DNA of 11,462 bases from Promethearchaeota archaeon (lineage in GTDB: Archaea; Asgardarchaeota; Lokiarchaeia; Sigyniarchaeales; SOKP01). The stretch spans positions 1 through 11,462 of the forward strand of contig JBHLLU010000094.1 of the NCBI GenBank assembly GCA_048938895.1, read 5' to 3'. This document shows, one piece after another, positions 2,570-11,461 of the stretch. Each line of letters opens with the position of its first letter. Within the stretch, counting starts at the first letter, position 1. The position numbers and the translations under genes were made by a program. Below the pieces are notes generated by a model. The model saw only the letters and a list, made by a program, of their open reading frames with translations, did no database searches and was not told where the DNA came from.

Positions 2570-2683
2570 ATAATTAAATTATTATCCTTGATTTATGAAT
2601 TCTAGTAGTAGTAGAATTAATACATTTTTTTATAGATATGAATTAAATTACTTTAAAATTTTCCTTTAAATTGGTTGAGTCTC

Positions 2684-5600
2684 ATGGATGAGCATGATGA
2701 AGAGGATTTTGAACAAGAGTTTGATGAGGATGGATTTGATCCTACAAAAGAAGCGTTTTTTTCTGATCTAATAGGTATCGAGGAAGATATCGCCTCGGAG
2801 GCATATGAATTAGTAGAACATGCAATAAGTCTCATAGCTACAAAGTATTATGATGATAGTATAGAAGTTTTAAGACAAGCAATTGGATTATACACTCAAA
2901 TAAACAGAGAAGAGGAAATTAAGGCAATAAATGATAAAATTTCTGAAGTATATCTATTGAAAGAAAAGGCATTTATGGAGGATGAAATTGAAACTGAACA
3001 AGAAGTTGAGATTAATTCCTCATTTGAAGTGCCTGATGAGAGACTTGCTTCTGATCTCAAAGCGGAACTAGCTCAAGAGGAGCAGAAAATAGATTTATTA
3101 GCAAATGCAGCGCAATTGATAAATGATGGTAAGAACTTGCTAAAAAGTAATAATTTTGAAGAAGCTTTAGATAAGTATGATGAAGCTGTTGAAATTTTCG
3201 AAAAAATGAATAAAGCAGATGAGGTTGAGCGCGTATTTAAACTTATAGAGGAATGTTATAATACAAAAGCAGAATTCTTGCGAAGCGTTAAAACCGAAAT
3301 ACCAAAAGATGAAATTGAATTAGAAAAAAGAGAGGTATTCGATAAAGAACAATTAAAAGATGAAAAGATTGAACAATATCTTACCTCGAAAAAGCGAGAG
3401 GAGGAAATTTCTAGTCAAGCATATGAAGTTTTAGGACAAGCAGCGGAGTTAGCAAAAGATAAAAAGTATAATGAATCTTTACTCCGATATGAGGAGGGGA
3501 AAAGATTATTTCAAGAATTAGGGTGGGATTATGAGGTTAGTAAAGTTGAAGAAACTATGACTCAATTAAAGGAGGAACAATCTGTTTCCTTGAAACCGTT
3601 AGTAGAAGAAGGAGTAGAAGAAAAAATCGAGCCTCAAAGGCAACAAGTAGATATCATTGATCAACAAATTATAGAAAGGGAGGAGCGAGAAAGAATTGAG
3701 AGATTGGAGAGATTAAGGGGTATAGAGCTTCAAAAGATGGAAACTGAATATTTCAAAGCCCAAATCGATAATATGGCTACAGAAGCGGTTCGTATGGCTC
3801 GTGAATATGAACTGGCTATGCAGAAAGCAATTAAGAAGGGAGAACTAATAGGGGAATGTATTTATCCACAAGTTATTGACCTATATAAAAGAATTAAGGA
3901 GTTGCTTATAGATAAAGGTTGGAGTAATGAGGCTGCAATTTATGATGATACTATTGATATATATATCCAAAAATTCGAACAAGATAAGAAAGTTAGAGAA
4001 ATTGAAGCTGAAAAGATTACTAGGCAATTACAAGCAGAAGAATTATTAAAAGTAAAAGAAAATGAAGAAGTTACCTCTTTAAAAGGTGTAGAACAACAAA
4101 AATTAGAGCAACTTCATAAACAAGAGATGGAAACTGAGAAGATCAGAGCAGAAATCACTAAAATGACTGATAGAGCTGATCGCTTAGCAAGAGAATATGA
4201 AGTCGCTCTAAGGAAAGGAAAATTTGAGTTAAAATGTCCCTTTCCTGAAATAATAGAAACTTATAGAATAGCACGGCAAAAATCACTAGAAAGAGGTTGG
4301 GAAACTGATGCGACCATTCATTTAAGTCAAATTCAAGCCTATACTGAGAAGCTAGAGAAAGACAGAAATTTAAGGAAGATTGAAGCAGAAAAGGCAATCA
4401 AGCAAAAGCAAGTAGAGGATACATTAAAAATTCAAACAACAGAGAAAAAACCTGTTATAGATGAAGAAAAATTAAAGAAAATAGAAGAGCAGACGATATT
4501 AGAAGAAGAAGCAGAATTCGAAAAAATGATAAATGAAATGGTGAAAAAAGCAGAAGATATGGCAAGAACGTATGAAATAAATATGAAGAAAGCAGTGAGA
4601 AGAGGTGAGTTAGCCGAAAATCCGCCTTTTGAGGAGATTATTAAAATTTATGAAAGAGCAAAACAAATGGCCGTTGTAAAGGGAAGAAATGAGGAAGCTA
4701 TGGCATACACTACTCAAGTAAATTATTATACTCAACAATGGGAAAAGGATATTAGATTGCGCGAAATTGAAGACCAAAAAATCCAGAGACAGAGAGAGAT
4801 TGAAGAGATGCATAAAGTTAGTAGAGAAGACAAGCTTGATACGGAACGTTTAGTCGCTATTGAAAAGAAAAAGGAGGAAGAAGATTTTGAAAGGTACATT
4901 ACCAGCATGGTTGATAAAGCAGAGAAAATGGTACGAGATCATGAAATTGAAATGCGAAAGGCTATGAGAAAGGGTGAAATAATAGAAAACACACCCTATG
5001 AGGAGGTAATTGATATTTATAATATAATACGGGAAAAGGTTTATGCTAGGGGGTGGAGAGAACAAACAGACATATTTGCAAACCAGATCAAAATATATAG
5101 GGATAAAGTGGAAAAGCATAATAAATTACTGGAAGTAGAAGCCCAAAAAATCCAAAAACAGAAAGAGATTGAAGAAATTCAAAAAGTTAGTAGAGAAGAT
5201 AAGCTTGATACGGAACATTTAGTCGCTATTGAAAAGAAAAAGGAGGAAGAAGATTTTGAAAGGTACATTACCAGCATGGTTGATAAAGCAGAGAAAATGG
5301 TACGAGATCATGAAATTGAAATGCGAAAGGCTATGAGAAAGGGTGAAATAATAGAAAACACACCCTATGAGGAGGTAATTGATATTTATAATATAATACG
5401 GGAAAAGGTTTATGCTAGGGGGTGGAGAGAACAAACAGACATATTTGCAAACCAGATCAAAATATATAGGGATAAAGTGGAAAAGCATAATAAATTACTG
5501 GAAGTAGAAGCCCAAAAAATCCAAAAACAGAAAGAGATTGAAGAAATTCAAAAAGTTAGTAGAGAAGATAAGCTTGATACGGAACATTTAGTCGCTATTG

Positions 5601-7945
5601 AAAAGAAAAAGGAGGAAGAAGATTTTGAAAGGTACATTACCAGCATGGTTGATAAAGCAGAGAAACTTGAAAGAGAATATGACTCAGCAATGAAAAAAGC
5701 TCTAAAGGAGGGAGAATTTATTGAAAAAACACCCTATCCAGAAATCATTGAAATTTATAGGGAAATTCAGAATAAATTATTGGAGAGAGGTTGGGTAGAT
5801 CAATCTAAAATTTATTTCAATCAAATTAAAAAAATTAAAGAAAAATTAAAGAAAAGCGAAAAATTAAGAGAAGTTGAGGCGAAAAAAGCAAAAAGACAAA
5901 AGGAACTAGAGGATATGCATAAGGTAAAGGAAGAATTCAAGCCTGTCCGACCAGAGAAAATCAAAGAACTTGAAGGAGAAGAGACAGAAGAAGATAAAAT
6001 AATTGATAGGGCTATGGAATTAATTGACGAAGCGGAACATTTAGTGAAAAATTATGAAATTAACATAAAAACTGATGTATTATTATATCAGAGCCCTTAT
6101 GATAATGCTATTTCTAATTATAATGACGCTAAAAAATTATTTCAAGAAATAGGATGGAATGAAGAAGCAATACGCCTAATCGATACAATTAAATTTTATA
6201 AAGACAAAAAAGAAAAAGATGAAAAGTTAAGAGAAATTGAACAAAATAAGCTGAAAGAACCAGAAAAGAAGCTTATAGCTGCTAAAATTGATGCGGAAAA
6301 AGAGTTGTTAGCAAAAGAGAAAAGGATAATAGAATTTGAAGCAAGCAAGAAAGAAGAAGCAAAACTAGCTGAAAACGTTTTTGATGAAATCCATAATGCT
6401 GAAAGAATAGCACAAGAATATGAATTGAAAATAAAGGATGGAAATTTTGATACTGAACCTCCTTATGAAAAAATTCTTAAGATTTATCGCAATGCACGTA
6501 GTAAATTCGAGGAAATAGGGTGGATGGAAGAATCAATGAAACTATTAAACCCAATTCAGTTTTATAAGGATAGGTTAGAAAAGGATAAAAGATTAAGAAC
6601 TTTAGAACTCGAGAAGGCTAAGAGACAAGAACAAGAGCTTTTAGCAAAAAGAAGACTCTTAGCTCAAGCTAAAGCCGAACAGGAACGGATTCTTAAAGAG
6701 AGAAAAGAATCTTTAACCCAAAGAGAAGTAGAGGAAAAATTGTTTGAATCCACTAAAGATAATGCTTTTCGGTTAATGGATCATGCAAAAAACGAATTGA
6801 AACAGAATAACTTCGAAAAAGCAATAGACCTATATAAAGCCAGTGAAGAAATCTTTATCCAGATAGAGTGGCAGGAAGGAATTAATATGGTTAGAGATTC
6901 TATTACTATGATCAAGAGAAAACAGAAATTCTTAGAATTAGAAAAACAAGCTATAGAAAAGAAAAGAATGGAAGAAACTAGAATTGAAGAACAATTAGAG
7001 GAAAAGATAGTCAAAGCTAAAGAATTAAGGAAACTCCAACAAGAACAAAAAAGAAAAGAATTGTTAAAAGTTCAAAATGAAAAACAGCGGGAAAGAGAAA
7101 TATCGGAGGAAGCTTATGAGATCTTAAAACAGGGTACTAAATTACTCGATAAGAAAAAATTTGATGAAGCTTATGAAAAGTATATTGAAGCACGTAAACT
7201 TTTTGATAGAGTTTCATGGAAACGTGAAGTATCTCGAATTAATAATGATCTTTTATATAAACTTCAAAGAGAGAGGAAAGCATTTGAGGCTCTTGAAGAT
7301 ATAAAAAAGAAAAAAGTTGAAGAACAAAAAGCTTTAGAAGCTTTAAAAGAAGAAGCTGCAAAAGAACAACGTGAACTCGCTAAAAAGCAAAAGGAAGAAA
7401 AACGAAGGTTAGAGCGAGAGAAATTTGATCAAGAAATACTCAAAGAAGTGGAGAGAGCAGAGAAGCTTATTGAAACTTATAAATTCAATGAAGGTGTGAA
7501 AATCCTTAAAATCGAGAGTAATAAATTGGAGAGATCTGGAAAAAGTGATGAAATCAAAAGGATTGATGAGATAATTAAAAAAATTGAAGGAGAAACTCAA
7601 GTTCCAATTATTACGATAGATACATTAGAGAAGTATGGTCCCAATCTTAAATTAGAAACTGCTTATAAGGCATTAGATAAAGCTCAAAGTTCAATAATAA
7701 GCGAAAAATTCATGAAAGCAATTTCAGAACTGAAGGAGTCTAAGTTTAATCTGTTAGAACTCAAATTTGATGAGAGGTATATCAATAAAATTGATGACAA
7801 AATTCATGAACTACAGGAAAAACTAGGAAAAAGCACAAAACCAAAAAAAGGAGCGCCTGAAGATGAGAGAGATTTACTGAAGGATCGTATTGCTGCTAGA
7901 AGGGAAGAAAGAAGAAAAAAAGTTTTAGATTTATTAAAAAAATAA
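2684..7945 (+). CDS. Giant (about 1750 aa) Glu/Lys-rich helical repeat protein: about 15 MIT/TPR-like three-helix modules joined by charged coiled-coil/SAH-like linkers
   Basis: Uninterrupted ORF (TTG 2675 or ATG 2684). Recurrent module A(Y/F)x(L)xxxAxxxxxxxx(Y/F)xxAxxxYxxAxxx(F)xxxGW. Eight central copies carry the extended motif AxEYE...KG......P(Y/F)xx(I/V)IxxY...GW......I..Y..K.EKD..LR.IE..K. The N-terminus is acidic. Confidence 0.9.
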   Translation: MDEHDEEDFEQEFDEDGFDPTKEAFFSDLIGIEEDIASEAYELVEHAISLIATKYYDDSIEVLRQAIGLYTQINREEEIKAINDKISEVYLLKEKAFMEDEIETEQEVEINSSFEVPDERLASDLKAELAQEEQKIDLLANAAQLINDGKNLLKSNNFEEALDKYDEAVEIFEKMNKADEVERVFKLIEECYNTKAEFLRSVKTEIPKDEIELEKREVFDKEQLKDEKIEQYLTSKKREEEISSQAYEVLGQAAELAKDKKYNESLLRYEEGKRLFQELGWDYEVSKVEETMTQLKEEQSVSLKPLVEEGVEEKIEPQRQQVDIIDQQIIEREERERIERLERLRGIELQKMETEYFKAQIDNMATEAVRMAREYELAMQKAIKKGELIGECIYPQVIDLYKRIKELLIDKGWSNEAAIYDDTIDIYIQKFEQDKKVREIEAEKITRQLQAEELLKVKENEEVTSLKGVEQQKLEQLHKQEMETEKIRAEITKMTDRADRLAREYEVALRKGKFELKCPFPEIIETYRIARQKSLERGWETDATIHLSQIQAYTEKLEKDRNLRKIEAEKAIKQKQVEDTLKIQTTEKKPVIDEEKLKKIEEQTILEEEAEFEKMINEMVKKAEDMARTYEINMKKAVRRGELAENPPFEEIIKIYERAKQMAVVKGRNEEAMAYTTQVNYYTQQWEKDIRLREIEDQKIQRQREIEEMHKVSREDKLDTERLVAIEKKKEEEDFERYITSMVDKAEKMVRDHEIEMRKAMRKGEIIENTPYEEVIDIYNIIREKVYARGWREQTDIFANQIKIYRDKVEKHNKLLEVEAQKIQKQKEIEEIQKVSREDKLDTEHLVAIEKKKEEEDFERYITSMVDKAEKMVRDHEIEMRKAMRKGEIIENTPYEEVIDIYNIIREKVYARGWREQTDIFANQIKIYRDKVEKHNKLLEVEAQKIQKQKEIEEIQKVSREDKLDTEHLVAIEKKKEEEDFERYITSMVDKAEKLEREYDSAMKKALKEGEFIEKTPYPEIIEIYREIQNKLLERGWVDQSKIYFNQIKKIKEKLKKSEKLREVEAKKAKRQKELEDMHKVKEEFKPVRPEKIKELEGEETEEDKIIDRAMELIDEAEHLVKNYEINIKTDVLLYQSPYDNAISNYNDAKKLFQEIGWNEEAIRLIDTIKFYKDKKEKDEKLREIEQNKLKEPEKKLIAAKIDAEKELLAKEKRIIEFEASKKEEAKLAENVFDEIHNAERIAQEYELKIKDGNFDTEPPYEKILKIYRNARSKFEEIGWMEESMKLLNPIQFYKDRLEKDKRLRTLELEKAKRQEQELLAKRRLLAQAKAEQERILKERKESLTQREVEEKLFESTKDNAFRLMDHAKNELKQNNFEKAIDLYKASEEIFIQIEWQEGINMVRDSITMIKRKQKFLELEKQAIEKKRMEETRIEEQLEEKIVKAKELRKLQQEQKRKELLKVQNEKQREREISEEAYEILKQGTKLLDKKKFDEAYEKYIEARKLFDRVSWKREVSRINNDLLYKLQRERKAFEALEDIKKKKVEEQKALEALKEEAAKEQRELAKKQKEEKRRLEREKFDQEILKEVERAEKLIETYKFNEGVKILKIESNKLERSGKSDEIKRIDEIIKKIEGETQVPIITIDTLEKYGPNLKLETAYKALDKAQSSIISEKFMKAISELKESKFNLLELKFDERYINKIDDKIHELQEKLGKSTKPKKGAPEDERDLLKDRIAARREERRKKVLDLLKK
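4814..5665 (+). repeat. In-frame tandem duplication with a 369-bp (123-codon) period, about 2.3 copies, near-identical
   Basis: Units start AAAGTTAGTAGAGAAGA at 4814, 5183 and 5552. I found only two mismatches between copies 1 and 2 (C4831/T5200 and G4848/A5217, the latter R to H). Identity ends at 5665. The identical antisense ORFs at 4850-5119 and 5219-5488 confirm the 369-bp period. Confidence 0.95.
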
Positions 7946-7962: not shown

Positions 7963-8184
7963 TTATGTAAATAAATTTTCTTCCACTTTATTTGTGATTT
8001 CAGATTCAATTATCGAAGGCTGAACATTTCTTTCTATTGATTCCTCTATAAGATATTCTGTTTTAATTAAGTCTCGAATTGCAACTCGAATTGCCTCTGA
8101 TCTATTAGGAAAACGTCCATCAGATACAAGAATCTCTAAAACTTTTAAATATGATTCAGGCAAGTTTACAGAAATTAATTTTAT
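7963..8184 (-). CDS. Ribbon-helix-helix (CopG/Arc/MetJ) transcriptional regulator, CdrS-like
   Basis: (M)KLISVNLPESYLKVLEILVSDGRFPNRSEAIRVAIRDLI gives an N-terminal beta-strand plus two helices with the G-x-F-P-N-R-S-E-A-I-R motif. The track start (8283) adds an implausible extension. The likely start is ATA 8184 (AGGTGA at 8195-8190, 5 nt upstream) or GTG 8193. Confidence 0.88.
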   Translation of the reverse strand: MKLISVNLPESYLKVLEILVSDGRFPNRSEAIRVAIRDLIKTEYLIEESIERNVQPSIIESEITNKVEENLFT

Positions 8185-8484
8185 AAAAATCACCTTGACA
8201 TTTTTAGTTTTAATTGATACAAATATATACGAGAGTGATATATTTAAAGATTTAGTGGAAATAAACCCCAAGAAATCCGACATAATGTCATTATATCTAT
8301 ATGAACCAATTGTGAAATATTTAATATTAGATCTTGATTAGTTGGCAGTAATCAAAAATCTTTAGAACCAGGTCAGAAACTGATTTATAGAAATATTTTT
8401 ATGTATGGCTTATATGTAACATGTAACTCACTTAAAAAATATTAAATATTGTAAAATTAAAATATATGAAATTGTTGATGGTTC

Positions 8485-8805
8485 ATGGCAGATATTCAAA
8501 CACAGTTAAAAGAACATCTAAGTAGTGGAGACGATTGGGAAAAAATGGCTACTCCTGTTGAAGGAGTGAGTGTAGTTAAAGTCCCTGCTACAAAAACAAG
8601 GCCAGCGCTATTATTTCTTGAAATTAATCCTTTAAAAGAGGATGGGAAACCTTTAAAGAAGAAAGGTTTGTTTGTGGGATCTAAAGAGATGCTCATTAAA
8701 TTCAGTGAAGCTCTAAATGACGATAAAACGTTCCAATTAATTAGTGAATTAGAAAAAGTGAATCCAAAAGTTACAGGTCGTAAAGGAAAAAAATTGGAAA
8801 TGTAA
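8485..8805 (+). CDS. Small hypothetical protein (106 aa), probably from a conserved archaeal family of unknown function
   Basis: Clean ATG ORF followed by a T-rich tract. The DWEK..T...GV.VVK.P......A.L.LEINP....G.P.KKKGL pattern resembles uncharacterised archaeal proteins as I recall them; not verified. Confidence 0.8.
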   Translation: MADIQTQLKEHLSSGDDWEKMATPVEGVSVVKVPATKTRPALLFLEINPLKEDGKPLKKKGLFVGSKEMLIKFSEALNDDKTFQLISELEKVNPKVTGRKGKKLEM

Positions 8806-8817
8806 GTATTATTTAAG

Positions 8818-8850
8818 ATTTTATTTTTCTTCTCTTTTTGTTTTTATATT
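8818..8850 (+). terminator. Putative archaeal oligo-T terminator
   Basis: TTTTATTTTTCTTCTCTTTTTGTTTTTAT lies just downstream of the stop at 8805. Confidence 0.5.
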
Positions 8851-8935
8851 AATTTACTACTCTCTCTAGTTTTAAGTTGGTTCTATTCAATTCATTTAAG
8901 AAATAATAATTGAATATAATCTCCAATGACATTAA

Positions 8936-9874
8936 ATGTTAGAGACATATAACGATTTTATGATATTTAAAGTCAAAGATAATGGGGAAGAATTTAGAGT
9001 TAATGCTTCAGAAGAATTATTCAGACAGAATAATGGAAATGAAATTTTGGACCCTTTACAAGTTGTAATAATTATTAAAGAAGCTCTTAGAAGAATCTAT
9101 ATTTGGAAAGGTGTTTCCTCTTCAGTAAGAAAAAAGTTTATCGCATCACGAATAGCCTCAGATATGCAAAGAAAATTGACGGAATCATCAAATTTTCACC
9201 GATGTAAAATTATCTCGGTGGATCAAGGAGATGAACCGGAAGAATTTCTGAATGCGTTTGGATTTAAAAAAACTCTAATTCCTCATAGTAAATTGAATTC
9301 AGATGATCTAACAAAAATGAATAATACCTTTGAAATATGTTCCAACGCTAAAATGTTGCAAGAAAAGGATAAAAATGTAAGCAAAAGGACTCTTAAGCCA
9401 AATTATTCCCCCTCTTATTCTGATTTAAAAAAAAATAAAAACTTTAGAAACGTGTTAGAAAGAGTTTTAAAAGAAAAAATTCCAGATAATTTCAGGAGGA
9501 TAAATATTCTTATTGGAAATAATACTTTGTATGGTTTAATTACAAAAAAAACAGAAATTTTTAATGATTTTGTAGAAATCAAGGAGTGGGATCAAATTTC
9601 AAATCTTTCAAATCAAATCATTGAGCTTGAGGGTCAAAAACTCAGAATATACCTAAATCGAGAAAGAAAAATAGTTGAAGCTATAGAGATTTTAGAAAAA
9701 ATACCTTCATATTTTGAGACTATGGAGGATGGCAAACAGGAGGATTATAATAAGTGGACGGTAAAACAATTGAAACAATTCTGCCATGAAAATAATATTA
9801 AAATTCTCTCTTCTTATAGAAAAGCTGACATTGTTCAAGCAGTTACAAACTATAATTCGTCGTGTTCTAATTAA
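8936..9874 (+). CDS. Asgard gelsolin-domain protein (1DGelX-like: gelsolin domain plus domain X) with an additional C-terminal SAP/Rho_N-like domain
   Basis: Gelsolin-fold signature LDPLQVVIII...RIYIWKGVSSSVRKKFIASRIA...KIISVDQGDEPEEFLNAFG (about 9047-9262). Then a low-complexity linker, IPDNFRRINILIG...LRIYLN...VEAIEILEK (about 9479-9700, resembles Asgard domain X), and YNKWTVKQLKQFCHENNIKILSSYRKADIVQAV (9746-9844, helix-extension-helix). Confidence 0.8.
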   Translation: MLETYNDFMIFKVKDNGEEFRVNASEELFRQNNGNEILDPLQVVIIIKEALRRIYIWKGVSSSVRKKFIASRIASDMQRKLTESSNFHRCKIISVDQGDEPEEFLNAFGFKKTLIPHSKLNSDDLTKMNNTFEICSNAKMLQEKDKNVSKRTLKPNYSPSYSDLKKNKNFRNVLERVLKEKIPDNFRRINILIGNNTLYGLITKKTEIFNDFVEIKEWDQISNLSNQIIELEGQKLRIYLNRERKIVEAIEILEKIPSYFETMEDGKQEDYNKWTVKQLKQFCHENNIKILSSYRKADIVQAVTNYNSSCSN

Positions 9875-9894
9875 AACTCATAACTGTGAAAAGA

Positions 9895-9940
9895 TTTAAA
9901 AAAAAAAAAATGAAATTAGGATTTATTTGTTTTTTGATAT
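9895..9940. terminator. Putative bidirectional oligo-T terminator region between convergent genes
   Basis: An A-run at about 9898-9910 (T-run on the minus strand, downstream of the SBP stop) and TTTATTTGTTTTTT at about 9922-9935 on the plus strand (downstream of the gelsolin-domain gene stop). Confidence 0.45.
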
Positions 9941-9949
9941 GTACTACTA

Positions 9950-11461
9950 CTATTCCTTATACCAATTCCAACAATCTAACATAGCCATAACATTATACCC
10001 GATTCCCTTTAAGTCATTTTGATGAACCTGTTGTATCAAGAAAACCCAACCAGGTATGTGAGTATATGAAGCAGGAGTCGTTCTGGTTATATCATAGATG
10101 TAGGATTGAATATCCATATAAACTTCTTGCCTAGCCGTTGGGTCGGTTAATGCTGAAGCTGTTTGTAACATTGTAATCAAATCAGGATCACTGATTCGAG
10201 AAAAGCATGAGCCCGACTGATTATTAAACAATGGATCAAGCATATTAAATGCATCAAGATAATCAGGGCACCAACCGATATATCCAACGTCCATCTCCCA
10301 AGGTGTGTGTTCACCAGTATCTAGATATTCTCCCCATGTTCTTATTGTTATAGAAATATCTATTCCGATTAAATCGAAGTTAGTTACCATTAATTGGTTC
10401 AATCGTTGATTAGTGCTATCTCCAAAATGTTGGTTTACTTCAAGTGTCATTAAGGATAAACTTGACCACCCAGATTCGGTAGTACCAGGATAATTTGGAT
10501 CAAGACCAGAAGTATTTGTTGGATACAATGCCATCATCAATTCTCGAGCTTTTTTAATATTACTCTCATAATTACCACCAAAAGGATAATCACTTGCCAT
10601 TTTTCCCTCTATTGAACTATTGTATCCCGGCATTGCTCGTGGAACAGCTGGACATCCAGGATATGCATATCCAAAGAGTATTTCATTTGTGATGTATGAA
10701 TAGTTTATTGATAGAGCAAGAGCTTTTCTGAAATCTGCTGAAAGTTTTTGATTGACTTGCCCTCCGACAACGGGAGATTCCCCTTCAGGAGGACCGCAAT
10801 ATATTTCTAAATAGAAATAACAGAGATCTTCACCGACATCTTCTACATGTAAATCAGGATCTGATATAAAACTTGGAATAAATGATTTTGGTACTCCTCC
10901 TACATAATCATACTGTCCTGATAATCCCGCGGTCATCCTGGCAGTATCATCTTCAACTATTCGAAATACCAAAAACTCAGCCCAAGGTCCAGTAGCCCAA
11001 TATCTTCCCCATCTTTCAAATCTTACATCAACATCATATTTGAATCGAAGAAATTCGAAGGGACCTGTACCTACAATCTTCTCTGTATTTAGATCTAAAA
11101 ATCTATATTTTGGAGTAGAAGCAGGAGATAAGACATATGCGGCTGAAAATGTCATTAAGTCTAGGAATGCGCCAAATGGTTTGTTTAAAAATATAGTAAA
11201 ATTATAATCACCAATAACTTCAGTTCTATTAATAATAGGAGTGCCATCAGAAAAGAAGTATAATGCTGATGGAAATGCTTCCCATGAGGTGTCATTTGCT
11301 ACCAGATCCCCGGTCCAGTTAATAAAGTACATAAGTCTGTCAAAATTCCATTTTACATCATGGGCAGTAAGAAGATTCCCATCGTGAAAATACACATTTT
11401 GTCGTATGGTAAATGAAATTTCTTGTGGACCATTCCATATCCAATCTTCAGCGAGTTTTGG
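9950..11461 (-). CDS. ABC transporter substrate-binding protein, family 5 (OppA/DppA-like), 5'-truncated by the window edge
   Basis: The frame stays open past the track start to the window edge: PKLAEDWIWNGPQEISFTIRQNVYFHDGNLLTAHDVKWNFDR (SBP_bac_5 signature). Also GTGPFEF, FRKALALSINY and GWCPDYLDAFNMLDPLF. Confidence 0.93.
   Translation of the reverse strand, partial: PKLAEDWIWNGPQEISFTIRQNVYFHDGNLLTAHDVKWNFDRLMYFINWTGDLVANDTSWEAFPSALYFFSDGTPIINRTEVIGDYNFTIFLNKPFGAFLDLMTFSAAYVLSPASTPKYRFLDLNTEKIVGTGPFEFLRFKYDVDVRFERWGRYWATGPWAEFLVFRIVEDDTARMTAGLSGQYDYVGGVPKSFIPSFISDPDLHVEDVGEDLCYFYLEIYCGPPEGESPVVGGQVNQKLSADFRKALALSINYSYITNEILFGYAYPGCPAVPRAMPGYNSSIEGKMASDYPFGGNYESNIKKARELMMALYPTNTSGLDPNYPGTTESGWSSLSLMTLEVNQHFGDSTNQRLNQLMVTNFDLIGIDISITIRTWGEYLDTGEHTPWEMDVGYIGWCPDYLDAFNMLDPLFNNQSGSCFSRISDPDLITMLQTASALTDPTARQEVYMDIQSYIYDITRTTPASYTHIPGWVFLIQQVHQNDLKGIGYNVMAMLDCWNWYKE

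What the first reader, a model, noticed from the sequence alone, without database searches (positions are those of the whole stretch)
8936..9874. Gelsolin + domain X + SAP/Rho_N-like fusion: a possible link between actin and nucleic acid in an Asgard archaeon
Seen: an N-terminal gelsolin-fold motif set (IYIWKG, DQGDEPEEFL), a middle domain, and a C-terminal 33-aa W-T-V-x-x-L-K-x-x-C-x-x-x-x-I-x-x-x-S-x-x-R-K-A-D-I-V module. Established: Asgard gelsolins, including one-domain 1DGelX proteins, regulate actin filaments, and SAP/Rho_N/LEM-type HeH domains bind DNA or RNA. Inference: this protein could tether actin (lokiactin) to the nucleoid or to RNA, or couple actin state to chromatin, loosely like eukaryotic MRTF (actin-binding RPEL plus SAP). 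I do not know this three-domain architecture among described Asgard gelsolin classes.
Basis: partly seen in the sequence, partly recalled or inferred. Interest (0 to 1): 0.75.

Follow-up and report, generated by a model that had tools for sequence, protein, structure and literature searches.

The report
Asgard gelsolin-X protein with SAP tail
This gene from an Asgard archaeon encodes a member of a known class of small actin regulators (gelsolin plus "domain X"); here domain X resolves into a beta-rich module that is predicted to pair with itself, followed by a small SAP-type tail of the kind that binds DNA, which hints at, but does not prove, a link between actin and the chromosome.

Summary
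ORF 8936-9874 (+, 312 aa) has four parts:
- a gelsolin domain, aa 1-114 (Thor ProGel 7C2F: phmmer E 1.3e-6; Foldseek E 1.6e-6, TMt 0.83);
- a disordered linker;
- a conserved helix plus six-strand beta domain, aa 160-258;
- a SAP/HeH module, aa 268-306.

This matches the published Asgard "1DGelX/GelX" class, so the architecture is not a new class. The passages I read call domain X "unknown", "coiled-coil" or "disordered", and I found no mention of SAP/HeH. Supplements were not readable.

Evidence bearing on the tail and the beta domain:
- The same SAP module sits on this genome's topoisomerase VI-B and on its ScpA kleisin.
- In relatives the tail is doubled, or replaced by a helix-hairpin-helix or by a strongly basic tail.
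- The beta domain is predicted to homodimerise (score 0.42, best control 0.00).

Best reading: a dimeric actin severing/capping factor steered to DNA. Actin binding and DNA binding are both inferred, not shown. Earlier notes of this scan report the same family on other DNA (five notes). I rate it a new variant of a known kind, of moderate interest.

The parts
8936..9874 (+). Whole CDS, 312 aa plus stop: GelX-class protein (gelsolin - linker - beta domain - SAP)
   Evidence: Only long ORF here. 396 homologs at E<=1e-3 among 1909 candidates.
8936..9277 (+). Gelsolin-fold domain, aa 1-114 (strands 8-13, 19-22, 43-48, 53-58, 91-96; long helix 64-84; helix 102-108)
   Evidence: phmmer to Thor ProGel 7c2f_B E 1.3e-6 over aa 18-113. 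Family profile E 1.1e-6. Foldseek 7c2f_B E 1.6e-6, TMt 0.83, followed by many gelsolin, villin and adseverin domains. pLDDT 84-95.
9278..9412 (+). Disordered, poorly conserved linker, aa 115-159
   Evidence: pLDDT below 50 for aa 116-159. Mean pairwise identity 0.15. Variable in length in the alignment.
9413..9709 (+). Core of 'domain X', aa 160-258: one helix (161-178) packed with a six-strand antiparallel sheet (186-255); predicted homodimer interface on strand 188-201
   Evidence: Model of aa 160-312, mean pLDDT 88. No PDB match at Foldseek E<=1e-3; only weak hot-dog-fold rows, Z 3.8-4.6, rmsd 4.2-5.3 A. Homodimer score 0.42 against best control 0.00. Tandem duplication of this domain in 6 of 80 related loci.
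9710..9736 (+). Short flexible hinge, aa 259-267
   Evidence: pLDDT below 50 for aa 260-267. Identity 0.15 for aa 256-269.
9737..9853 (+). SAP/HeH (helix-extension-helix) module, aa 268-306, helices 276-285 and 296-311
   Evidence: Sub-threshold Pfam SAP, Rho_N and HeH hits on this protein. The same column block hits HeH in 16, Ish1 in 15, SAP in 8 and Rho_N in 4 of 32 orthologs. VIA-align: Hcc-1 SAP Z 6.0, SLX4 SAP Z 6.0, Rho N-terminus Z 5.7, emerin LEM Z 5.6, Tho1 SAP Z 5.0, MKL1 SAP Z 4.5.
8806..8935 (+). Intergenic region upstream: T-runs after the stop of the upstream gene, then an A/T-rich TTTAAGAAATAATAA about 30-40 nt before the ATG (possible own promoter; inference only)
   Evidence: Read directly from the sequence. 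No test was made.

Best explanation
The gene encodes a member of the Asgard GelX (1DGelX) class of actin regulators.

Shown here by computation: the order of modules. This is a gelsolin-fold domain, a floppy linker, a family-specific helix plus six-strand beta domain, a short hinge, and a SAP/HeH module.

Inferred:
1. The gelsolin domain binds the organism's actin (Lokiactin; the genome has five actin-family genes) in the way Thor ProGel binds actin in 7C2F. As reported for Thor 1DGelX, the protein would then sever, cap or nucleate filaments without calcium control.
2. The beta domain pairs with itself through its first strand. The working unit would then carry two gelsolin heads and two tails, which would explain how a one-domain gelsolin can sever and bundle.
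3. The SAP tail binds DNA without sequence preference, RNA being less likely. That would concentrate this actin-cutting and capping activity on the nucleoid, or anchor filament ends to it.

In this lineage the same SAP module is attached to topoisomerase VI-B and to the ScpA kleisin. I therefore read it as a lineage-wide 'go to the chromosome' tag.
For: Gelsolin domain:
- PDB phmmer to 7c2f_B gives E 1.3e-6 and the family profile gives 1.1e-6.
- Foldseek gives E 1.6e-6, TMt 0.83, with 102 matches at E<=1e-3, and every row printed is a gelsolin-superfamily entry.

Class:
- Published passages define 1DGelX as one gelsolin domain plus an unknown domain X. They report Kd 7.7 uM for rabbit actin and calcium-independent severing and nucleation (PMC7444086).
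- In L. ossiferum, five gelsolin-homology proteins were enriched in a Lokiactin co-IP, and B35_GelX clusters with Thor_GelX (preprint passages).
- The genome has actin genes, the best at E 4.9e-125.

SAP fold.

SAP as a DNA tag:
- My SAP HMM finds the module in 6 ORFs of this genome.
- One is Topo VI-B (NF003218 E 1.4e-94, over cut-off; SAP at aa 938-970).
- Another is a 340-aa protein that is followed 10 nt later by ScpB (PF04079 E 4.7e-23), so it is ScpA by context.

Tail swaps on a tree of 77 GelX cores:
- Two helix-hairpin-helix tails (Pfam HHH_5 E 8.8e-5 and 4.8e-7) nest inside the 42-row single-SAP clade.
- Four strongly basic tails (net +15 to +34) sit next to SAP-bearing sisters.
- A 12-row clade has two SAPs.

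Conservation: the SAP block is as conserved as the beta domain (0.60 against 0.55; linker 0.15).

Dimer:
- Score 0.42 with best of 3 controls 0.00. That mark was reached by 20 of 30 proteins solved as pairs of one chain and by 1 of 23 solved as single chains.
- The runs agree in at least 85% of contacts and the partner's pLDDT is at least 72.
- My own alignment was used, so the counts hold only roughly.
- The symmetric interface lies on aa 188-201.
- The domain is duplicated in tandem in 6 of 80 loci.
Against: - No binding of actin, DNA or RNA is shown for this protein or for any SAP-bearing relative.
- The SAP block is only mildly basic (net +2 for aa 268-306; net 0 for aa 259-312).
- It is below every Pfam cut-off on this protein.
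- SAP-like folds also make protein contacts. CDNF and MANF C-terminal domains bound to the BiP ATPase domain, and SLX4 with MUS81, are among the best structural rows (Z 5.8-6.0).
- GFP-tagged Thor 1DGelX in human cells was excluded from the nucleus and gathered near the nuclear membrane and ER (passage). I could not establish whether that protein has a SAP.
- In the sampled phylum, matches that reach the SAP end were listed only for the window's own family. Other families gave gelsolin-plus-beta matches only. The tail is therefore an add-on and not part of the family's core function.
- Neighbouring genes give no DNA-related hint, and synteny holds only in the nearest 9-10 of 80 loci.
- The dimer score sits exactly on the mark.
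Confidence: 0.45

Rival explanations
1. The SAP tail is a protein-binding module and not a nucleic-acid one. It would give the protein a second contact with actin (filament side binding) or with another partner, as the authors of the 1DGelX paper proposed for the C-terminal extension in general.
For: - The authors state the hypothesis that the C-terminal extension holds an actin side-binding domain (PMC7444086 passage).
- Top structural rows include SAP-like domains seen in protein complexes: CDNF-BiP ATPase domain (9i5y Z 5.8, 24% identity), MANF-BiP (6h9u Z 4.9) and SLX4-MUS81 (7bu5 Z 6.0).
- From recall, not tested: the Hsp70 ATPase domain shares the actin fold.
Against: - The same module on Topo VI-B and on ScpA is hard to explain by actin binding.
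- Replacement by HhH and by lysine/arginine-rich tails points to a polyanion such as DNA.
- Relatives outside the window's family lack the tail yet keep the gelsolin and beta domains.
Confidence: 0.2
2. The tail binds RNA rather than DNA (Rho-N-like use). The protein would then couple actin dynamics to transcripts or ribosomes, for example for local translation or mRNA placement in protrusions.
For: - Rho_N is among the Pfam hits: 4 of 32 orthologs, best E 9.5e-8.
- The Rho RNA-binding domain 1a62 scores Z 5.7.
- Several SAP rows come from RNA machines: Hcc-1, SF3B2 and spliceosome entries.
Against: The in-genome partners of the module that could be named are DNA enzymes or condensin. From recall: in Rho the helical N-terminal sub-domain is not the main RNA-contacting part.
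Confidence: 0.12
3. The tail is a general polyanion or membrane anchor. SAP, HhH and basic tails would all stick the protein to acidic lipids, or to the filament itself, at the cell envelope or in protrusions, with no role at the chromosome.
For: - Some relatives carry very basic low-complexity tails.
- Thor 1DGelX-GFP gathered at membrane-rich regions in human cells.
- Lokiactin fills protrusions (passages).
Against: From recall, SAP and HhH are not known lipid binders. This protein's own tail is nearly neutral. The module is shared with Topo VI-B and ScpA.
Confidence: 0.08
4. The gelsolin fold has been re-used for something other than actin, and the protein is a chromatin or nucleic-acid factor with no cytoskeletal role.
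For: Pfam Gelsolin is below cut-off on this protein (14.6 against 21 bits). No actin assay exists for a SAP-bearing member.
Against: - It is closest to Asgard gelsolins solved in complex with actin.
- The gelsolin block is the most conserved part (0.67).
- The GelX class member that was tested acts on actin.
Confidence: 0.05

Closest known systems
Thorarchaeota 1DGelX (Thor_GelX) and Lokiarchaeum ossiferum B35_GelX (Akil et al. 2020, PMC7444086; bioRxiv 10.1101/2025.11.30.690169)
   Same: One N-terminal gelsolin domain followed by a long linker and a non-gelsolin 'domain X'. Asgard only. Several paralogs per genome: this genome has two gelsolin-beta-SAP genes, one diverged gelsolin-beta gene and six further gelsolin-domain ORFs.
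   Different: The published passages describe X as unknown, as a coiled coil (I-TASSER) or as disordered. Here X is a folded beta-rich domain plus a SAP/HeH module. I could not obtain the Thor or B35 sequences: supplement PDFs are not held and bioRxiv supplements are closed. Direct homology of the X regions, and whether those two proteins carry a SAP, are therefore untested.
Thor ProGel, PDB 7C2F (single gelsolin domain bound to rabbit actin)
   Same: Best sequence and fold match of aa 18-113.
   Different: ProGel is the bare domain (94 aa) and showed little or negligible actin binding (Kd 337 uM). This protein adds about 200 residues.
SAP / HeH / LEM / Rho_N helix-extension-helix modules (for example Tho1 SAP 1H1J, Hcc-1 SAP 2DO1, emerin LEM 2ODC)
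   Same: About 35 residues forming two helices joined by an extended loop. Structural Z 5.0-6.0 with rmsd 2.1-2.9 A over 44-46 residues. Orthologs hit these Pfam models, best E 1.4e-10.
   Different: No gelsolin-plus-SAP pairing turned up in my literature searches. Which ligand this copy binds is unknown. At Z 5-6, a domain this small shows fold likeness only.
Eukaryotic MRTF/MKL1 (actin-binding RPEL motifs plus a SAP domain; architecture recalled)
   Same: An actin-binding part and a SAP on one chain. The MKL1 SAP (2KW9) is among the structural rows (Z 4.5).
   Different: There are no RPEL motifs here (none among the Pfam hits at E<=1). The actin-binding part is a gelsolin fold. This is an analogy of layout and no evidence of kinship.
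Hot-dog fold (thioesterase/dehydratase) dimers
   Same: A long helix lying on an antiparallel sheet, and a predicted dimer made by pairing edge strands into one continuous sheet. Tandem 'double' forms exist in relatives.
   Different: The match is only weak (Z 3.8-4.6, rmsd 4.2-5.3 A, 6-10% identity). The helix comes before all the strands. There is no hint of a catalytic site. The resemblance may be no more than a common arrangement.

Membership tests
Gelsolin/cofilin-fold domain (Asgard gelsolins) | Gelsolin fold: a mixed sheet packed against a long helix | tested here: met
   Foldseek 7c2f_B E 1.6e-6, TMt 0.83, then villin, adseverin and gelsolin domains. Model pLDDT 84-95 over aa 10-110.
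Gelsolin/cofilin-fold domain (Asgard gelsolins) | Significant sequence similarity to a solved gelsolin | tested here: met
   phmmer to 7c2f_B E 1.3e-6 and to 2DGel3 E 1e-5. Family profile 1.1e-6.
Gelsolin/cofilin-fold domain (Asgard gelsolins) | Pfam PF00626 over its curated cut-off | tested here: inconclusive
   14.6 bits against 21 on this protein. 5 of 32 orthologs hit at E<=1e-3. This is a detection criterion and does not define the fold.
Gelsolin/cofilin-fold domain (Asgard gelsolins) | Binds actin | not testable with these tools
   Inferred from homology only.
1DGelX / GelX class | Exactly one gelsolin domain at the N-terminus, followed by a non-gelsolin C-terminal extension | tested here: met
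   HMM layout GEL 1-113, BETA 160-256, SAP 269-306. The GEL and BETA profiles are unrelated (hhalign probability 0.3%). Definition taken from passages.
1DGelX / GelX class | X region homologous to that of Thor 1DGelX or B35_GelX | not tested
   The sequences and accessions are in supplements that I could not read.
1DGelX / GelX class | Calcium-independent severing and nucleation of actin | not testable with these tools
   Reported for Thor 1DGelX only.
SAP / HeH / Rho_N helix-extension-helix clan | Two helices of about 10-15 residues joined by an extended loop, about 35 aa | tested here: met
   Helices 276-285 and 296-311. VIA-align Z 5.0-6.0 to solved SAP, LEM and Rho-N domains, covering the whole module.
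SAP / HeH / Rho_N helix-extension-helix clan | Profile match over the curated cut-off | tested here: inconclusive
   This protein is below cut-off: SAP 19.0 against 23.9, Rho_N 17.3 against 24.9, HeH 13.9 against 28.9. For the aligned block in orthologs, HeH hits 16, Ish1 15 and SAP 8 of 32 at E<=1e-3, best E 1.4e-10.
SAP / HeH / Rho_N helix-extension-helix clan | Binds DNA or RNA | not testable with these tools
   Indirect only: the module is shared with Topo VI-B and ScpA, and is swapped for HhH or basic tails in relatives.
Hot-dog fold (for the beta domain) | Confident structural match | tested here: inconclusive
   Best rows Z 3.8-4.6, rmsd 4.2-5.3 A. The domain was not modelled and searched on its own.
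MRTF-like actin sensor | RPEL actin-binding motifs | tested here: not met
   No RPEL family among the Pfam hits at E<=1. This is an analogy only.

The most novel reading that the evidence does not exclude
In Lokiarchaeia-type Asgard archaea, a dimeric gelsolin is physically tied to the chromosome through a SAP tag that it shares with condensin (ScpA) and topoisomerase VI. Lokiactin filaments would then be cut, capped or anchored on DNA. This would be an actin-based system for placing, compacting or segregating the nucleoid that predates eukaryotes and foreshadows the eukaryotic coupling of actin to chromatin (SAP, HeH and LEM proteins at the nuclear periphery, MRTF, nuclear actin).
Probability: 0.15. 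Interest if true: 0.85.

Novelty: new variant of a known kind. Interest (0 to 1): 0.5.

Why it matters
[quoted passage not shown] The GelX class was the most active Thor gelsolin on rabbit actin, yet two thirds of the protein was a blank labelled "X".

Resolving X gives the field two concrete, cheap experiments: a test of self-pairing by the beta domain, and a test of DNA binding by the SAP tail. It also gives a specific hypothesis, that actin dynamics are steered to the chromosome. If that holds, it bears on how eukaryotic links between actin and chromatin arose. If the tail proves to be only a second actin or partner site, the result still explains how a one-domain gelsolin can sever and bundle.

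Tried and rejected
- Beta domain, sequence level: no PDB sequence match with the family profile and no Pfam family. The YkyA hit (E 2.3e-4, below cut-off, aa 196-270) is taken as chance.
- Beta domain, structure level: Foldseek on the model of aa 160-312 gave nothing at E<=1e-3. VIA-align gave only weak hot-dog rows.
- ESM Atlas on aa 160-262 returned only unnamed Asgard clusters. Scores were 0.79-0.80 by features, and structure rows with TM 0.59-0.74 all came from the same family.
- Beta domain as a degenerate second gelsolin domain: rejected (hhalign probability 0.3%).
- Longer fused forms: none at E<=1e-8 among proteins of 547-2000 aa. The tool itself calls this weak evidence.
- Gene neighbourhood: the layout giant MIT protein, RHH, orf106, GelX is shared only by the nearest 9-10 of 80 loci. 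No neighbour is conserved across the SAP-type clade. Context gives no functional lead.
- Expression: no RNA holder was listed for window 8400-9950.
- Rfam and tRNA scans of the window found nothing.
- Linking the protein directly to the published Thor 1DGelX sequence failed. No accession appears in the main texts and the supplements were not readable.
- The ScpA call by Pfam alone is weak (E 0.003) and there is no PDB sequence match. It rests on the adjacent ScpB gene.
Full report
**What is there**

The window carries one long open frame at 8936..9874 on the + strand (312 aa).

The surrounding genes fit an Asgard archaeon:
- a Ras-family GTPase (718-1236);
- a proteasome alpha subunit (1338-2057);
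- a 1756-aa protein with MIT domains (2675-7945);
- a ribbon-helix-helix protein (7963-8283, minus strand);
- a 106-aa ORF (8485-8805);
- a family-5 solute-binding protein (9950-11461, minus strand).

Named relatives of the protein are all labelled Promethearchaeota, Lokiarchaeota or other Asgard groups.

**Is it more than chance?**

Yes. The word-indexed search gave 396 proteins at E<=1e-3 among 1909 candidates of 171-546 aa. The exhaustive search of 50%-identity representatives gave 218 at E<=1e-3, 102 at E<=1e-10 and 34 at E<=1e-30.

In an alignment of 32 full-length relatives (A1), conservation comes in blocks. I used 28 rows, leaving out two double-SAP rows, one HhH row and one row with a long insert. 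Mean pairwise identity is:
- gelsolin block 0.67;
- beta block 0.55;
- SAP block 0.60;
- linker 0.15;
- hinge 0.15.

**Gelsolin domain**

On this protein Pfam Gelsolin is below its cut-off (14.6 against 21 bits). Other evidence establishes the fold:
- phmmer against PDB sequences gives Thor ProGel 7c2f_B at E 1.3e-6 over aa 18-113, followed by Asgard 2DGel proteins, adseverin and gelsolin.
- The family profile gives 1.1e-6.
- The AlphaFold2 model (mean pLDDT 76.8; 84-95 over the domain) matches 7c2f_B by Foldseek at E 1.6e-6 and TMt 0.83. There are 102 matches at E<=1e-3, and all the printed rows are gelsolin-superfamily entries.

**Middle part**

- Residues 116-159 are predicted disordered (pLDDT below 50).
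- Residues 160-258 fold as one helix (161-178) plus six antiparallel strands (186-255). Confidence is high in a second model of aa 160-312 (mean pLDDT 88).
- No PDB sequence match exists and there is no Foldseek match at E<=1e-3.
- VIA-align finds only weak hot-dog-fold thioesterases (Z 3.8-4.6, rmsd 4.2-5.3 A over 68-73 residues). The tool's own notes class this as a possibly common arrangement.
- It is not a second gelsolin domain (hhalign probability 0.3%).
- I did not model it alone, so I make no claim that the fold is new.

**C-terminal module**

On this protein SAP (E 0.0011), Rho_N (0.0048) and HeH (0.045) are all below cut-off. Across the 32 aligned relatives the same block hits HeH in 16, Ish1 in 15, SAP in 8 and Rho_N in 4 at E<=1e-3, with best E-values of 1.4e-10 to 9.5e-8.

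In the structure search against about 48,000 representative chains, model residues 104-153 (protein aa 263-312) match these entries:
- SAP of Hcc-1 (Z 6.0, rmsd 2.8, 46 aligned);
- SLX4 SAP (Z 6.0);
- E1B-AP5 SAP (Z 5.9);
- the Rho N-terminal domain (Z 5.7);
- emerin LEM (Z 5.6);
- Tho1 SAP (Z 5.0);
- MKL1 SAP (Z 4.5).

For a 45-residue domain these Z values show the fold and not the function.

**Place among known families**

Passages of Akil et al. 2020 (PMC7444086) define three Thor gelsolin layouts. [quoted passage not shown] Those passages report:
- Kd 7.7 uM for rabbit actin;
- calcium-independent nucleation and severing;
- failed crystallisation;
- an I-TASSER coiled-coil prediction for X;
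- the hypothesis that the C-terminal extension binds filament sides;

Other papers add the following.
- The 2019 preprint says the same about X.
- A 2022 paper counts two 1DGelX in MK-D1 and three in GC14_75 (one passage).
- The 2025 L. ossiferum preprint calls X a "disordered domain of unknown function". It reports five gelsolin-homology proteins enriched in a Lokiactin co-IP (passages).

The window's protein fits this class by layout. I could not compare it with the Thor or B35 sequences, because accessions are only in supplements that I could not read.

On whether the SAP is in print:
- No paper in the library holds 'gelsolin', 'SAP domain' and 'Asgard' together.
- The one hit for Asgard + gelsolin + HeH is a surname.
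- The two papers with 'Asgard archaea' and 'SAP domain' are, by title and abstract start, about viruses and about Dictyostelium (listing only).
- 'sap' occurs in PMC7444086 only inside a file name. It occurs 0 times in PMC9433394. 'sap' and 'heh' each occur 0 times in the 2025 preprint.
- Supplementary figures could still show it.

**Family survey**

A scan of species-representative genomes found 145 stretches encoding relatives, and 80 loci were kept. I scored their ORFs with my three domain HMMs. The 80 public loci hold:

| Architecture | Loci |
|---|---|
| gelsolin-beta-SAP | 46 |
| gelsolin-beta-SAP-SAP | 13 |
| gelsolin-beta | 13 |
| gelsolin-beta-beta | 6 |
| cut by contig ends | 2 |

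Among the 13 gelsolin-beta ORFs:
- two end in a helix-hairpin-helix (HHH_5 E 8.8e-5 and 4.8e-7);
- four end in lysine/arginine/proline/alanine-rich tails of net charge +15 to +34;
- the others have short tails or are cut.

Thirteen public loci and one paralog in this genome end in a short [RK]-x-L-P-x-[IV]-P motif.

I built a quick maximum-likelihood tree of 77 gelsolin-to-first-beta cores. I left out one duplicate locus, one truncated ORF and rows with a gelsolin hit under 90 aa. The tree shows:
- The window sits in a starred 10-row single-SAP clade.
- The HhH pair (99) nests inside the 42-row single-SAP clade.
- The double-SAP proteins form one clade (99).
- The basic tails (98) are sister to SAP-bearing proteins.
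- The double-beta proteins form one clade (99).

The tree is rooted at the midpoint for drawing only, so the directions of change are inferred.

In a sample of 201 genomes of the phylum, 77 have a match at E<=1e-10. The window's own family has 39 of 40. Among the listed rows, only genomes of that family have matches reaching the SAP end of the query. Other families match aa ~3-280 only (30 rows were not listed). The gelsolin-beta core is therefore broad in Asgard, and the SAP tail looks like an addition in one family.

**Where else the SAP module sits in this genome**

My SAP HMM hits six ORFs in the six-frame ORF set of the genome:
- this protein;
- its paralog on contig 88 (362 aa; gelsolin-beta-SAP plus the LPxIP end);
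- a 1089-aa ORF that is topoisomerase VI subunit B (NF003218 E 1.4e-94, over cut-off; Topo-VIb transducer E 2.2e-29; SAP at aa 938-970);
- a 340-aa ORF with the SAP at its N-terminus and a weak ScpA match (E 0.003), followed 10 nt later by ScpB (PF04079 E 4.7e-23), hence ScpA by context;
- two unnamed proteins, one of them with Rho_N E 4.9e-7.

The six copies align with the same W/L-T-V-x-x-L-K ... [RK]-K-x-x-I-I pattern. This is the best indirect evidence that the module targets DNA in this lineage.

**Self-pairing of the beta domain**

Two copies of aa 160-263 scored 0.42 with the best of 3 controls at 0.00.
- That mark was reached by 20 of 30 proteins solved as pairs of one chain and by 1 of 23 solved as single chains.
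- The runs agree in at least 85% of contacts and the partner's pLDDT is at least 72.
- My own alignment was used, so the counts hold only roughly.
- The interface is symmetric and centred on the first strand (aa 188-201), with contacts from aa 170, 174, 178, 218, 221, 231-238 and 247-252.
- The model supports pairing but does not show it, and the score is exactly at the mark.
- The tandem double-beta relatives fit the same idea.

**Mechanism**

Shown: the module order and its conservation.

Inferred, in falling order of confidence:
1. The gelsolin head binds Lokiactin. The genome has five actin-family genes, the best at E 4.9e-125.
2. The beta domain makes a dimer, giving two heads per unit.
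3. The SAP tail binds DNA and so places the activity on the nucleoid.

Points against are the near-neutral charge of the tail, protein-binding uses of SAP-like folds, the extranuclear location of Thor 1DGelX-GFP and the lack of any informative gene neighbourhood.

**Novelty and score**

The class is known and the gene is one of hundreds of orthologs. What is new relative to the print I could search is the resolution of X and the SAP tag shared with chromosome proteins.

Earlier notes of this scan describe the same family on other DNA. I checked their main claims here independently and they hold. My rating is a new variant of a known kind, with interest 0.5.

Noticed in passing
window 8485-8805 (+): A 106-aa ORF lies directly upstream. 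It has no Pfam or NCBIfam family, yet is 81-87% identical in 10 related loci, more conserved than the GelX gene beside it (53-61%). The protein Atlas places it near widespread unnamed archaeal families of about 100-112 aa (score 0.94). A distant lead to bacterial DUF3276 scores only 0.79.
   Followed up: partly
window 2675-7945 (+): A giant 1756-aa protein with MIT domains (PF04212 32.6 bits, over cut-off) and no other clear family. It is syntenic with the GelX gene in 9 of 80 related loci.
   Followed up: partly
own genome contig 88, 44117-45202 (L002:1495-2580), and L061, L067, L073, L074, L076-L078, L080-L082, L085, L086, L088: A GelX subfamily ends in a conserved C-terminal [RK]-x-L-P-x-[IV]-P peptide, for example ...RRQLPKIPSKDD. 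Short proteins made of the beta domain alone end the same way (P0207, P0223, P0259, P0231). From recall only, the motif resembles class I SH3 ligands and the MIM2 motif bound by MIT domains. This subfamily has its own conserved neighbours, a 259-aa membrane protein and a 653-aa protein, in 17-18 loci.
   Followed up: partly
own genome contig 51, 2653-5919 (L089), and contig 138, 2430-3449 (L006:1492-2511): Topoisomerase VI subunit B carries a C-terminal extension with the same SAP module. The ScpA kleisin, placed by the ScpB gene 10 nt downstream, carries it at its N-terminus.
   Followed up: yes
L068, L070, L075, L073: GelX relatives whose tails are repeats such as PTAKRR or AAKKKP, with net charge +15 to +34. 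From recall they are reminiscent of linker-histone tails. L073 contains a run of N.
   Followed up: partly
own genome contig 85, 6982-7818 and 12245-13345: A diverged gelsolin-beta paralog (279 aa, no SAP) lies about 4.4 kb from an actin-family gene (E 1.1e-42) on the same strand.
   Followed up: no
L009:4001-4858: The closest public ortholog (61% identity) reads as a 286-aa ORF that stops inside the SAP block, while the tblastn match runs on to 4909. This may be a frameshift or an assembly error.
   Followed up: no
own genome contig 44, 35317-36525 (L003): A 403-aa protein has a GelX-like gelsolin head (E 1e-36 to my GEL profile) but a different, unplaced C-terminal part. ORFs of similar length with only the head matching recur in other genomes of the family.
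   Followed up: no
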